A stretch of 64,000 bases of DNA from Escherichia coli (GTDB lineage: Bacteria > Pseudomonadota > Gammaproteobacteria > Enterobacterales > Enterobacteriaceae). Made by a program: the position numbers. Below are positions 28,501 through 31,500 of the stretch, one piece after another. How positions within the stretch are numbered: the first letter of the stretch is position 1; the number at the start of each line of letters is the position of its first letter. The stretch is taken from assembly GCF_965641715.1 (NCBI RefSeq), contig NZ_OZ282453.1. The stretch is one strand, 5' to 3'.

Positions 28501-31500
28501 CGCGAATTTTGACAGTTTTTGCATCCTGATCCCAAGTTACGTCATTTTTATAGACGACAGGATCGTGTTTAACCGGGGTATCGCCACCATCGTCTGGCGG
28601 CACTGGCGCATCACCGCCGTCGTCTGGAACTGGCGTATCACCGCCATCATCTGGTGGAACCGGCGTATCACCGCCGTCATCTGGCGGAACTGGCGTATCA
28701 CCGCCGTCATCTGGCGGAACTGGCGTATCTCCGCCGTCATCTGGCGGAACTGGCGTATCACCGCCATCGTCTGGCGGAACCGGCGTATCACCGCCGTCAT
28801 CAGGCGGAACTGGCGTATCACCGCCGTCATCAGGCGGAACTGGCGTATCACCGCCGTCATCTGGCGGAACTGGCGTATCACCGCCGTCATCTGGCGGAAC
28901 TGGCGTATCACCGCCGTCATCTGGCGGAACCGGCGTATCACCGCCGTCATCAGGCGGAACTGGCGTATCACCGCCGTCGTCTGGCGGAACAGGCGTATCA
29001 CCGCCATCATCCGGAACTGGGGAGTTATTATGGTGGTGATTGTCATCGTCACTTAAGGTATATATAGCAATTCCCGTAGCTATTGCAGCAAGACCTGCAG
29101 CTGCCCATGGTAAAACTGCACTATCTTTATTTTCTCTGCACTCCGCGGATAAATTTTCTAGCTGCTCTTTGCTCAGGGAATGAATATTTGCCGGACATGT
29201 TATCTTACTGGACTTACGTGTTTTTTCGGTTGAGTCGGGTATTGAAGTATCCGCAGCCCATGTCTGGCTACTTAACGCCATGGCAACACAAACAGACAAT
29301 AATTTTTTCCTTTGCATATAAAATTCCTTAGATCTAGACCGTGCGTAACAAGCCATGCAGAATTTGAAGATAAATCGTAGTAAATATTCATAGTGAAATA
29401 AGCAATAAAGAAATGCTTATATAATTCACAAAATCAATATTAAAATCAGGCAAGTAAAAGCATACAAAAAACACTTGATGGAATTATATTCCACAAAAAA
29501 CTCACTTCAATCTAAAAATTAACGACAAAAAACAAAAACTCACTAATAATTCATTGACGCTGCATATATATTTTGTGATTACATATATATTGGTAATGAT
29601 TTGTTATTTAAGGGAAGGATATATAAGGTTTTTGTAGAAATACCCACGGTAATTAAGCATGCTAACGTCAGTTTAAATACTGTAAAAGATCATTAATAGA
29701 TACATTTTGTAGCCAACTATAATTTATTTGCGCAACCATTTACCATTAATTCCCTGAACATATTGCCCCGACTTCGCGCGAGCAACAAGCTTTTGTCCAG
29801 CCAGTTTGGCTATCTCTTTAGTGGATACATTATTTTGCTTTGCCAGTTGTTGGTAACTATGGTTACGAGCTTCATTAATATCTTTTACTAATGCCTGTGT
29901 TTCGGCATCCGTTTGTAGCGCCACCAGGTAACCGTTAAGCGTTTCACCTACCCGCCCCTGACTTCTGGCTTCGTTCAGGGTTAAAGCCATTGCACTGTCG
30001 CTCATCAGGCCAATGGCCCATACAGCTATGAGTAATGTTCTTTTCATCATCACCTCAAAATAGATCGCTACGGGTTTTGAGCAGGTCTTCAACGTCCTTA
30101 TCCGCTTTAATGATGATTTCATGCTCAATTTTAACGTTCATATTAATGGTGATTGGCTCTTTCGGCGCAGCCACTTCAATGCGAGGCGTGCAACCAACCA
30201 ACATAAAAGAGGACGCAAACGCGGCTATCACTATTTTCATTGTTTTTCCTCACACTCTTTTCCTGATGGGCAGCCAGTTTCCGGTAGCTGGGCATTCTGC
30301 TCCAGCCATACCTGGAGATTATCGCCAAAGCGTAAACTGCGCCATAACGTAAAAATATTCTCTTCATGGTGATAATTAAGGTTTACCGTACCGCTTTTAC
30401 CATCGACGCGACTGGTGCCCGAAATGTTGGCCTGCATGGTTAACACACCGAGATTATCTAAATTAATCCTTGTTGATGAGCGACTGATTTCCATATAACG
30501 CAACCAGTTGATGGCAGTTCCAGCGGTCATATTGTCTTTGGCCACCGCATCTGCAGTGTCTTTATCCAGACGCAGCGTCATCGGCCCCGCGTTTGCCAAC
30601 CAGCCCTCTTTGACAATCCATTTTTCATTGTTCAGCCATAGTGGCAAGGCCCCACTGAATGCACCAGACATAGCAAATTGTTTCGGATTGACGGCGCTAA
30701 CCAGTTCGCTGGATGAGAGATTATTCAGCCGCAACAGCGCCGGGTCATGTTGCGGCATACGTAATTGTTTCATCAGCACGTTACCGCCTAACACATCGAC
30801 GCTAACATCAGTCAACAGCAATGGTTCTTCTTCAGTCCACGGATAACGCCCTTGCAAATCAGCCGTAATATTTTTCGCTGTCACCAGATTAATCACTTCG
30901 GCAATTCGCAACGTAACGGGGCCGCGAGTCCCAAGATGCCAGGCTCCATCGGCAAAACGGAAAGGCAGGACAAAATCGACACCGTTAACCTGATTATCTG
31001 GCATCCAGGCACTACCGCCTTTCAACACGCCGTGCCCTCCCGCGCGGAATCCTTGTTCAGGCGCAGCAGAAAATGCAACCTGAGCATACAGTTCACCATC
31101 GCGTAAGTTCATCTTCCAGTCGGGTGGCACCAGCGGCTGGAATACAGTCAGTGATTGTTTAGGCCACCAGGCGTTACCGCGCAGACGAATACCGTCCCAG
31201 CGACCATTTACCCGAACCGGGCCAATCTCACCAGCATGTAAATCGCCTTTAAAGAGGAAATACGTCGGATCGCGCCCATCGACGCTAAATTTTAAGGTTG
31301 ATGGCGGTAACACACTGCCGCCAGTGAACAGCGTTTGCCCGGCGTCCAGTGACAGCGCGCCGCTGAAGGAGGGATGCTGTGCGTCACGTACCCAGACGAC
31401 GGGCTTGTCGAGAATTAATCGCGGCTTTTCTACCGTCATCGTACCGTATTGTAACTGGTCGAAACCGGTGGAGAGATCGGTCAGCGTAATCGTGCTGTCA

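What the first reader, a model, noticed from the sequence alone, without database searches (positions are those of the whole stretch)
28574..29018. About 15 tandem 30-bp repeats encoding PVPPDDGGDT in the YdbA N-terminal stalk
The array is nearly perfect at the DNA level, so it is recent or homogenised, and it is in frame. Copy number can change by recombination or replication slippage and alter the length of a Pro/Asp-rich acidic spacer between the signal peptide and the passenger. The same array creates several long spurious ORFs in other frames.
Basis: seen in the sequence. Interest (0 to 1): 0.45.

Follow-up and report, generated by a model that had tools for sequence, protein, structure and literature searches.

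The report
Variable 30-bp coding repeat in ydbA
A real, in-frame array of 15 ten-residue repeats (PVPPDDGGDT) forms a proline/aspartate-rich linker near the start of an E. coli surface-protein (autotransporter) gene; its copy number runs from 2 to 15 between strains, but the gene is broken in this genome, so it is an ordinary variable repeat, not a new system.

Summary
Window 28577..29020 (minus strand) carries 15 head-to-tail units (13 of 30 bp, 2 of 27 bp; 444 bp) that read PVP(P)DDGGDT in the frame of the ydbA/BigA-family autotransporter gene. It is the only strong tandem repeat in the 64 kb.

In 19 other E. coli genomes with this allele the array has 2, 4, 5, 7, 8, 9, 11, 12, 13, 14 or 15 units, always in frame. 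Unit maps show duplications, deletions and hybrid junction units, as expected from slippage or unequal recombination.

Differences between units are almost all synonymous, so the peptide has been under purifying selection.

- **Position.** The array does not directly follow the signal peptide. A conserved 78-residue module (two-cysteine loop, hydrophobic segment, Asp/His patch) comes first.
- **DNA identity.** It is about 90%, not near-perfect.
- **Gene status.** The gene is inactivated here by a 2-bp deletion (about position 26633) seen in none of 371 comparable genomes. Array length probably has no phenotype in this strain.

Across the family the same linker position holds other Pro/Asp repeats with different units. 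This is a new example of a known kind (a coding minisatellite in a surface-protein linker) of modest interest.

The parts
28577..29020 (-). Tandem array of 15 units (13 x 30 bp, 2 x 27 bp) encoding PVP(P)DDGGDT. This is residues 100-247 of the protein counted from MQRKK.
   Evidence: TRF; unit-by-unit parsing and translation; unit-type map ABCDEECCFGEEHIJ.
26627..29317 (-). N-terminal reading frame of the ydbA/BigA-family autotransporter gene (896 aa from MQRKK). It ends early at a stop created by a frameshift. The mechanical ORF extends 13 codons further upstream to an ATG at 29356.
   Evidence: ORF list and translation. Intact homologues are annotated as starting at MQRKK. Pfam BigA_N hit.
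26627..26643 (-). Frameshift zone. A 2-bp deletion relative to intact alleles (CTCTTTCA becomes CTCTCA, at about 26633) makes the two reading frames overlap here.
   Evidence: Alignment to the intact PapRG-06-5 gene. All 371 E. coli genomes with this allele align to this stretch at no better than 95-99% identity; the 12 listed rows each span 77 bases against the 75-base query, i.e. carry the 2 extra bases. No match is exact.
23365..26626 (-). C-terminal part of the same gene in the shifted frame (ORF 23365..26643, 1092 aa). It holds the BigA beta-sandwich domain (about 24412..24663) and the autotransporter beta-barrel domain (about 23455..24054).
   Evidence: Translation. Pfam PF25783 and PF03797 hits. 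NCBIfam auto_BigA partial match. 72% identity to the K-12 YdbA C-terminal fragment.
29255..29317 (-). Predicted Sec signal peptide MQRKKLLSVCVAMALSSQTWA, with likely cleavage after TWA.
   Evidence: Read from the sequence and conserved in the family alignment. Cleavage is inferred from the n-region, h-region and A-x-A pattern; no predictor was run.
29138..29197 (-). Conserved two-cysteine loop (C41-P42 ... C60).
   Evidence: C41, P42 and C60 are invariant in 19 family sequences. AlphaFold2 pLDDT is 77-79 here.
29054..29119 (-). Hydrophobic Gly/Ala-rich segment AVLPWAAAGLAAIATGIAIYTL, residues 67-88.
   Evidence: Kyte-Doolittle mean 1.88 over 19 residues; simple Hessa-scale sum +2.2 kcal/mol. 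G75 is invariant and hydrophobic character is conserved across the family. pLDDT is below 50.
29021..29050 (-). Asp/His-rich patch DDDNHHHNNS immediately before the array.
   Evidence: Translation. Similar Asp/His/Gly-rich patches occur in family members.
28316..28558 (-). BigA_N beta domain (PF25784), starting 6 residues after the array.
   Evidence: Pfam E = 4.2e-33. The AlphaFold2 model has eight strands with pLDDT 94-98.
28478..29056 (+). Spurious antisense ORF (192 aa) created because the periodic array has no stop codons. Two more ORFs of the same kind lie at 28537..29052 (-) and 28654..29067 (+).
   Evidence: ORF list. All variable sites in the array fall at third positions of the ydbA frame, so that frame is the selected one.

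Best explanation
The array is a coding minisatellite (an in-frame VNTR) inside the chromosomal ydbA gene. ydbA encodes a BigA/YdbA-family classical (type Va) autotransporter.

**What it encodes.** A 148-residue, strongly acidic, proline-rich segment with no basic residue. It is most likely disordered or extended. It links a small conserved N-terminal module (two-cysteine loop, hydrophobic segment, Asp/His patch) to the BigA_N beta domain and the long beta-helical passenger.

**How it varies.** Every unit is 27 or 30 bp, so replication slippage or unequal recombination adds or removes whole units (or two-unit blocks). The linker changes by about 10 residues per step and the frame is never broken. 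The result is length variation, not on/off switching.

**Selection.** Historical purifying selection on the peptide is shown by the synonymous-only divergence between units.

**Status here.** In this genome a 2-bp deletion about 1.9 kb downstream separates the N-terminal 896 residues from the beta-barrel. The protein cannot be displayed on the surface, and the array is now evolving in a pseudogene.

**Shown:** the anatomy, the frame, copy-number polymorphism, unit rearrangements, the synonymous bias and the gene disruption.
**Inferred:** disorder, the spacer role, the slippage mechanism and loss of function.
For: - **Array and frame:**
- **Domain content:** BigA_N, BigA_beta and the autotransporter beta-domain are found across the two ORFs, with a partial auto_BigA match.
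- **Gene context:** the gene sits between ORFs that match pdxI and ydbH in length (861 bp and 2640 bp), the arrangement annotated in other E. coli.
- **Copy number:** 20 arrays hold 2, 2, 4, 5, 7, 7, 7, 8, 9, 11, 11, 12, 12, 13, 13, 14, 15, 15, 15 and 15 units, with 15 distinct structures. A rank-spaced sample of 60 of the 372 matching genomes gives the same classes from match spans.
- **Rearrangement signatures:** O157 arrays read ABCDW, ABABCDW and ABABABCDW, i.e. 57-bp AB-block duplications. The 2-unit arrays carry a hybrid junction unit.
- **Synonymous bias:** 22 synonymous against 1 non-synonymous difference within the window, and 9 of 9 variable columns at third codon positions. Across all 24 unit types, 13 synonymous against 4 non-synonymous variants, against 27% synonymous expected by chance (binomial p = 2.6e-5).
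- **Disorder:** most of the linker has low AlphaFold2 confidence, while the flanking BigA_N domain scores pLDDT 94-98.
- **Family context:** homologues have Pro/Asp(/Gly)-rich linkers at the same position, often tandemly repeated with other units, e.g. PPDDGGNVT x about 17, PDDGGNT x about 14, TPTPPDDGGD, PVD and PIPDPTPD.
- **Frameshift:**
Against: - No experiment or expression data were available. The spacer function is inferred from composition and position alone.
- The hydrophobic segment upstream of the array is unexplained. If it acts as a membrane anchor, the linker's role could be different.
- The 2-bp deletion could be a sequencing error in the source assembly; this cannot be checked here.
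- The unit differences are not independent events, because duplication copies substitutions. The within-array binomial test on the window's 22 vs 1 count (p = 4e-12) overstates significance for this reason. The count of distinct variants (13 vs 4) and the 9-of-9 third-position columns are the fairer measures.
Confidence: 0.8

Rival explanations
1. The array is an adaptive length-variation (contingency-like) locus. Selection favours rapid change of stalk length or of an exposed epitope, for example to tune how far the passenger projects beyond LPS or capsule, or to escape antibodies, as proposed for repeat regions of other surface proteins.
For: - Repeat expansions with different units have arisen repeatedly at the same linker position across the family.
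- All seven sampled genes annotated as intact have 11-15 units. Every array shorter than 11 units lies in a broken gene.
- The peptide is conserved.
Against: - Many carriers are pseudogenes, through at least five different lesions: a nonsense codon in O157/O55, a frameshift here, IS insertions in K-12, and others in strains 23CRST031, 2824, TUM13936 and OkiPb01695. This argues for relaxed selection on the gene in E. coli.
- The 7-unit array is shared by about 60% of the O157-clade rows in the sample and by O55:H7, so turnover is slow.
- The link between intactness and length rests on few independent lineages.
Confidence: 0.2
2. The repeats are a calcium-binding acidic module that folds or stiffens when it binds Ca2+ outside the cell. 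The DDGGD motif would work like RTX nonapeptides or thrombospondin type-3 repeats, helping late steps of passenger secretion or rigidifying the stalk.
For: - There are three Asp and two Gly per 10 residues, with strict conservation of DDGGD.
- The same DDGG(D/N) core recurs in the differently sized units of other family members.
Against: - No Pfam or NCBIfam calcium-binding repeat family matched at E <= 0.01.
- The unit does not fit the RTX pattern GGxGxDxUx; it has period 10 with three or four prolines and no hydrophobic position.
- AlphaFold2 gives low confidence over most of the linker.
- Some family linkers lack the motif altogether and use PVD or PIPDPTPD units instead.
Confidence: 0.1
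3. The array length in the window is an assembly artefact (collapse or expansion of a repeat), and the apparent polymorphism between genomes reflects assembly quality.
For: Repeats are error-prone in short-read assemblies, and the source reads cannot be inspected.
Against: - The array is only 444 bp and contains 10 distinguishable unit sequences in a fixed order.
- Identical 7-unit arrays recur in many independent complete O157:H7 assemblies and in O55:H7. Identical 15-unit arrays occur in two unrelated assemblies.
- Every length difference is a whole number of units and leaves the flanks intact.
Confidence: 0.03

Closest known systems
E. coli K-12 YdbA (pseudogene b4492) and the BigA/YdbA autotransporter family (Pfam PF25784 BigA_N, PF25783 BigA_beta; NCBIfam NF033178 for Salmonella BigA)
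   Same: - Same chromosomal neighbourhood next to pdxI/ydbD.
- Same domain order: signal peptide, Cys loop, hydrophobic segment, Asp/His patch, Pro/Asp linker, BigA_N, beta-helix, BigA_beta, beta-barrel.
- The C-terminal half is 72% identical to K-12 YdbA.
   Different: - The N-terminal half is only 37% identical to K-12.
- The K-12 linker is a degenerate 40-residue Pro/Asp stretch with no DNA-level repeat.
- This allele occurs in about 372 of 5426 complete E. coli genomes.
- The NF033178 score is far below its cut-off (246 and 878 against 3400), so this is not the BigA equivalog.
Repeat-encoded wall- or surface-spanning spacers of Gram-positive adhesins, e.g. the Staphylococcus aureus protein A Xr region (the 24-bp units used for spa typing) and the Ser-Asp repeat region of ClfA/Sdr proteins (from general knowledge, not tested here)
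   Same: Short in-frame DNA repeats encode a low-complexity, charged or Pro-rich segment. It acts as a stalk between an anchor and a functional domain, and unit number varies between strains through slippage or recombination.
   Different: - Different organism, different envelope and unrelated sequence.
- Here the segment lies at the N-terminal end of an autotransporter passenger, not next to a cell-wall anchor.
- A spacer function has not been shown for YdbA.
Polymorphic proline-rich repeat regions of Bordetella pertactin, region 1 (GGxxP)n and region 2 (PQP)n (from general knowledge)
   Same: A classical autotransporter passenger carrying short Pro-rich tandem repeats whose number differs between isolates, always in frame.
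   Different: - Pertactin repeats are loops on the folded beta-helix and are immunodominant epitopes.
- The YdbA array is a long terminal linker outside the helix, is strongly acidic, and sits in a gene that is often inactivated.
TonB proline-rich spacer, (Glu-Pro)n-(Lys-Pro)n (from general knowledge)
   Same: A hydrophobic N-terminal segment followed by an extended, charged, proline-rich region.
   Different: - TonB has an uncleaved signal-anchor and spans the periplasm.
- YdbA has a cleavable-looking signal peptide before the hydrophobic segment and a C-terminal outer-membrane barrel.
- Linker length in the YdbA family ranges from about 10 to about 150 residues, which does not fit a fixed periplasmic span.

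Membership tests
Variable-number tandem repeat (coding minisatellite) | Head-to-tail copies of one unit, well beyond chance | tested here: met
   TRF score 700, 14.8 copies, period 30. It is the only array with score >=60 in 64 kb.
Variable-number tandem repeat (coding minisatellite) | Copy number differs between related genomes while the flanks are conserved | tested here: met
   2 to 15 units in 20 arrays, with 15 distinct array structures. Match spans in 60 sampled genomes agree.
Phase-variable contingency locus (simple-sequence on/off switch) | Change in repeat number shifts the reading frame or alters promoter spacing | tested here: not met
   All units are 27 or 30 bp. Every variant array keeps the frame. 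The array lies inside the coding sequence, not the promoter.
Classical (type Va) autotransporter | C-terminal autotransporter beta-barrel domain (PF03797) | tested here: met
   PF03797 E = 6.2e-18 in the downstream ORF. In this window it is out of frame with the array-bearing ORF.
Classical (type Va) autotransporter | N-terminal Sec signal peptide | tested here: inconclusive
   MQRKKLLSVCVAMALSSQTWA has the n-region, h-region and A-x-A look and is conserved. No signal-peptide predictor was available, and a second hydrophobic segment follows at residues 67-88.
Classical (type Va) autotransporter | One uninterrupted polypeptide joining passenger and barrel, needed for function | tested here: not met
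   A 2-bp deletion at about 26633 splits the gene into 896-aa and 1092-aa frames. No other genome searched shares it. Intact alleles of 1941-1984 aa exist elsewhere.
BigA/YdbA family | BigA_N (PF25784) and BigA_beta (PF25783) domains | tested here: met
   E = 4.2e-33 and 8.9e-25, both above the gathering scores.
BigA/YdbA family | Equivalog of Salmonella BigA (NF033178 cut-off 3400 bits) | tested here: not met
   Scores are 245.9 and 877.8 bits.
ydbA orthologue of E. coli K-12 | Same chromosomal position and collinear homology | tested here: met
   The gene lies beside an ORF the length of pdxI, the neighbour of ydbA in K-12, Sakai and other strains. Identity to the K-12 fragments is 37% for the N-terminal part and 72% for the C-terminal part. 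It is a divergent allele.
RTX-type calcium-binding repeats | Nonapeptide GGxGxDxUx, detectable as Pfam HemolysinCabind | tested here: not met
   No such Pfam hit at E <= 0.01. The unit has period 10, is Pro-rich and has no hydrophobic position.
Established E. coli O157 MLVA typing loci (Vhec / O157-n / TR sets) | Identity with a published typing locus | tested here: inconclusive
   Full-text searches for the unit sequence, the peptide, ydbA plus VNTR/tandem, and Vhec1 found no paper that describes this array. The original MLVA papers are mostly outside the searchable library.

The most novel reading that the evidence does not exclude
The BigA/YdbA N-terminal module could be an uncharacterised tethering device. 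The module comprises a cleavable signal peptide, an invariant two-cysteine loop, a conserved hydrophobic Gly/Ala-rich segment, an Asp/His patch and a variable-length acidic linker. In this reading the hydrophobic segment anchors or re-inserts the far end of the passenger in a bacterial or host membrane, or drives self-association. The repeat array then sets the tether length, and repeat expansion is the family's way of tuning it.
Probability: 0.1. Interest if true: 0.55.

Novelty: new member of a known kind. Interest (0 to 1): 0.28.

Why it matters
- **Typing.** The array is a clean, easily sized polymorphic marker for the E. coli lineages that carry this ydbA allele. These include O157:H7 and O55:H7, where arrays of 2, 4, 5, 7, 8 and 9 units were seen.
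- **Annotation.** It generates three long false ORFs, and PGAP gives the array-bearing gene or fragment names such as 'proline-rich domain-containing protein', 'beta strand repeat-containing protein' and 'hypothetical protein'.
- **Biology.** It shows that the BigA/YdbA family keeps an acidic Pro-rich linker of very variable length, rebuilt repeatedly from different repeat units. It also draws attention to an odd, conserved hydrophobic segment just upstream.
- **Limits.** In this genome the gene is broken, the gene is often inactivated in E. coli, and no function is known. The practical importance is therefore modest.

Tried and rejected
1. **Word-indexed protein search.** Searching with the N-terminal 355 aa returned only 12 hits, mostly fragments, so it could not give a copy-number census. 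It did reveal other alleles with 2 to 9 or more units.
2. **Literature.** Searches for ydbA plus autotransporter, VNTR or tandem, for BigA, for the O157 locus tags ECs2006/2007, for the repeat DNA and peptide strings, and for Vhec1 found no description of this array. ECs2006/2007 appear only as 'BigA-like/BigB-like' adhesin candidates and as a SNP locus.
3. **Structure prediction.** AlphaFold2 on the N-terminal region (a 2-unit version with a 19-sequence alignment) gave a confident BigA_N domain. It gave no confident placement of the hydrophobic segment or of most of the linker.
4. **Fold search.** Foldseek against the PDB found nothing at E <= 0.001, so BigA_N gets no functional lead.
5. **Promoter and terminator scan.** The scan upstream of the gene found no more sites than in shuffled sequence.
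6. **Lipoprotein anchor.** Considered and rejected: the Cys at position 10 follows LSV and leaves only about 5 hydrophobic residues before it. This was judged by inspection only.
7. **Programmed frameshift at 26633.** Considered and rejected: all 371 other genomes that match this stretch lack the deletion, and intact alleles encode one continuous protein.
8. **Shared lesion with O157:H7.** Rejected: O157/O55 carry an independent nonsense codon (Gln to stop at codon 1021 of strain F8798), not this frameshift.
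Full report

Yes. Tandem Repeats Finder reports a single array at 28571-29011 with period 30, 14.8 copies, 90% matches and score 700. No other tandem repeat in the 64-kb window scores 60 or more.

Reading the minus strand in the frame of the long ORF gives exact limits of 28577..29020 (444 bp). The 15 units are a 27-bp unit (PVPDDGGDT), twelve 30-bp units (PVPPDDGGDT), a second 27-bp unit (PVPDDGGDA) and a last 30-bp unit.

The 13 full units average 91.5% pairwise identity (range 77-100%), and the 15 units have 10 different sequences. The peptide is almost perfect.

**2. What gene is it in?**

The array lies in ORF 26627..29356 on the minus strand. Annotated homologues start at the internal MQRKK (window 29317), 13 codons downstream of the first ATG.

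- The array-bearing ORF has a BigA_N domain (PF25784, E = 4e-33).
- The next ORF (23365..26643) has BigA_beta (PF25783) and the autotransporter beta-barrel (PF03797).
- Both ORFs partly match NCBIfam auto_BigA, far below its cut-off.
- The neighbouring ORFs have the lengths of pdxI (861 bp) and ydbH (2640 bp). That matches the arrangement annotated in O157 Sakai and other E. coli, and the pdxI/ydbD side of K-12 ydbA.
- Against K-12 YdbA the N-terminal part is 37% identical and the C-terminal part 72%.

This is therefore the positional ydbA gene, but a divergent allele. DNA searches find the allele in about 372 of 5426 complete E. coli genomes, whereas the conserved 3' part of the gene matches 5139 genomes.

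**3. The gene is broken here**

Alignment to an intact allele (strain PapRG-06-5, 1954 aa) shows three differences:
- the 39-bp difference in the chosen start codon;
- a 90-bp (three-unit) difference in the array;
- a 2-bp deletion at window position about 26633 (CTCTTTCA becomes CTCTCA).

The deletion shifts the frame and gives a stop at 26627. A 75-base query across the site matched 371 genomes. None was an exact match, and each of the 12 listed alignments spans 77 bases, i.e. includes the 2-base gap. The lesion is thus private to the source genome, or is a sequencing error.

Without the barrel in frame, the 896-residue N-terminal product cannot be displayed by the autotransporter route. That conclusion follows from the established type Va mechanism.

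Inactivation of this gene is common and has happened independently several times:
- O157:H7 and O55:H7 carry a nonsense codon.
- K-12 has IS2 and IS30 insertions.
- Strains 23CRST031, 2824, TUM13936 and OkiPb01695 are annotated as partial or frameshifted.

**4. Does copy number vary?**

Yes, widely. I extracted the array from 19 other genomes and parsed the units. Gene status is as annotated in each record or, for the window and the O157/O55 clade, as shown by my alignments.

| Genome(s) | Units | Gene status |
|---|---|---|
| Window | 15 | frameshifted |
| UCPROB-001, DSM 103246, 23CRST011 | 15 | intact |
| ZF8-1 | 14 | intact |
| TUM18530 | 13 | intact |
| 2824 | 13 | annotated partial |
| PapRG-06-5 | 12 | intact |
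| 23CRST031 | 12 | annotated partial |
| ETEC6335 | 11 | intact |
| TUM13936 | 11 | annotated partial |
| O157:H7 / O55:H7 clade | 9, 8, 7, 7, 7, 5, 4, 2 | nonsense codon |
| OkiPb01695 | 2 | frameshifted |

Fifteen of the 20 arrays have distinct structures. Match spans in a rank-spaced sample of 60 of the 372 matching genomes fall into the same length classes, with the 7-unit form dominant in O157.

Coding each unit sequence as a letter shows how the arrays change:
- O157 arrays read ABCDW, ABABCDW and ABABABCDW, which are gains of a 57-bp AB block.
- The 2-unit arrays end in a hybrid unit, the start of B fused to the end of the terminal unit. That is the expected scar of a deletion between misaligned units.
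- The window reads ABCDEECCFGEEHIJ. It has adjacent identical units (EE, CC, EE) and private variants (F, G, I).
- End units are conserved and interior units change, as is typical of minisatellites.

Every change is a multiple of three bases. The locus varies in length and cannot switch the gene on or off.

**5. Selection on the peptide**

- Among the window's 13 full units, all 9 variable columns are third codon positions (chance about 5e-5).
- Differences from the consensus are 22 synonymous against 1 non-synonymous.
- Across the 24 unit types seen in 20 genomes, 13 of 17 distinct variants are synonymous, against 27% expected (p = 2.6e-5).

These counts are partly non-independent, because duplication copies substitutions. 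Even so, the direction is clear. The units are not all recent copies, and the peptide was conserved while silent sites drifted. The same pattern identifies the ydbA frame as the real one and the other ORFs as artefacts.

**6. Where the array sits in the protein, and family context**

The order of features, counted from MQRKK, is:
1. signal-peptide-like start (residues 1-21);
2. a loop between two cysteines (C41, P42 and C60 are invariant in 19 family sequences);
3. a hydrophobic Gly/Ala-rich segment (residues 67-88);
4. DDDNHHHNNS;
5. the array (residues 100-247);
6. six residues later, BigA_N, followed by the beta-helix.

The array is therefore not directly between the signal peptide and the passenger.

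An exhaustive HMMER search with the N-terminal 222 residues (a 2-unit version) found only 67 cluster representatives among 1.84 billion proteins. The module belongs to a narrow family.

Members have a Pro/Asp(/Gly)-rich acidic stretch at the same position, ranging from about 10 to about 150 residues, often as tandem repeats of other units:
- PPDDGGNVT x about 17;
- PDDGGNT x about 14;
- TPTPPDDGGD x 3-4;
- PDDGGDSGT x 4;
- PVD x 8;
- PIPDPTPD;
- GDNGDDNG;
- PVPPDDGGDT x about 9 in a second E. coli allele.

K-12 has a degenerate 40-residue version without a DNA repeat. Repeat expansion at this linker is thus a recurrent family trait, and the window's array is one lineage's version.

**7. Likely mechanism**

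The segment has 45 Asp, 43 Pro, 30 Gly and no basic residue. Most of it has low AlphaFold2 confidence, while the adjacent BigA_N domain is predicted at pLDDT 94-98.

The best reading is a disordered or extended, strongly acidic tether whose length is set by unit number. I offer that only as background.

Whether length matters is untested. The only hint is that the seven intact genes sampled all have 11-15 units, while every array shorter than 11 units is in a broken gene. That pattern rests on few independent lineages.

A calcium-binding role for DDGGD is possible but unsupported, since there is no family match and no confident structure.

The hydrophobic segment scores as membrane-like on the Kyte-Doolittle scale (1.88) but only marginal on a simple Hessa-scale sum (+2.2 kcal/mol). 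A true stop-transfer segment after a cleaved signal peptide would be incompatible with export of the passenger, so its role remains open.

**8. Novelty and verdict**

In-frame repeat arrays in linkers of surface proteins are a well-known kind; examples include the protein A Xr region, ClfA/Sdr Ser-Asp repeats and the pertactin repeats. I found no paper describing this particular array, but the classic O157 MLVA papers are largely outside the searchable library.

It is a real, polymorphic coding minisatellite in a gene that is inactivated in this genome. It is useful as a marker and as an annotation warning, and biologically it is of modest interest.

Noticed in passing
window 26627..26643 (about 26633): A 2-bp deletion splits ydbA into 896-aa and 1092-aa reading frames. 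None of the 371 complete E. coli genomes that match this stretch shares it, so it is either a strain-private pseudogenising mutation or a sequencing error.
   Followed up: yes
window 29054..29119 (residues 67-88 of YdbA): A conserved hydrophobic Gly/Ala-rich segment lies about 45 residues after a cleavable-looking signal peptide, preceded by an invariant Cys-Pro...Cys loop. This is topologically odd for a classical autotransporter and I found no explanation for it.
   Followed up: partly
Family proteins P0014, P0020, P0021, P0024, P0026, P0027, P0028, P0034, P0038, P0039, P0069, P0006: The linker position holds independently expanded tandem repeats with different unit lengths (3, 7, 8, 9, 10 and 11 residues) in different lineages of the BigA/YdbA family.
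   Followed up: partly
L002, L003, L018 (O157:H7 F8798 and Sakai, O55:H7 DEC5A): In O157:H7 F8798 alignment shows a nonsense codon (Gln to stop, codon 1021) that splits ydbA into the 'BigA-like' and 'BigB-like' genes ECs2006/ECs2007. Sakai and O55:H7 DEC5A are annotated with the same two-gene split. Array length still ranges from 2 to 9 units within this clade.
   Followed up: yes
window 23365..29317 compared with L012 (K-12 ydbA): The gene looks mosaic. The 3' part matches 5139 of 5426 E. coli genomes by megablast and is 72% identical in protein to K-12. The 5' part (37% identical in protein to K-12) matches only about 372 genomes. This suggests long-standing allelic divergence or recombination in the passenger region.
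   Followed up: partly
window 29357..30236 compared with L012: ydbA lies directly downstream of ydbH, with ynbE and ydbL annotated in the gap in O157 Sakai and other carriers. In K-12 the paa genes (paaJ to paaY) lie immediately upstream of ydbA, so this genome lacks those genes at this position.
   Followed up: no
L012 4053..5006 (K-12 ydbA fragment 1): K-12 ydbA has a different, much larger tandem repeat in the passenger: period 294 bp, 3.2 copies, 90% matches.
   Followed up: no
window 29318..29356: The mechanical ORF starts 13 codons upstream (MACYARSRSKEFY) of the start annotated in homologues (MQRKK). The longer form would put extra residues in front of the signal peptide and is probably not used.
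   Followed up: partly
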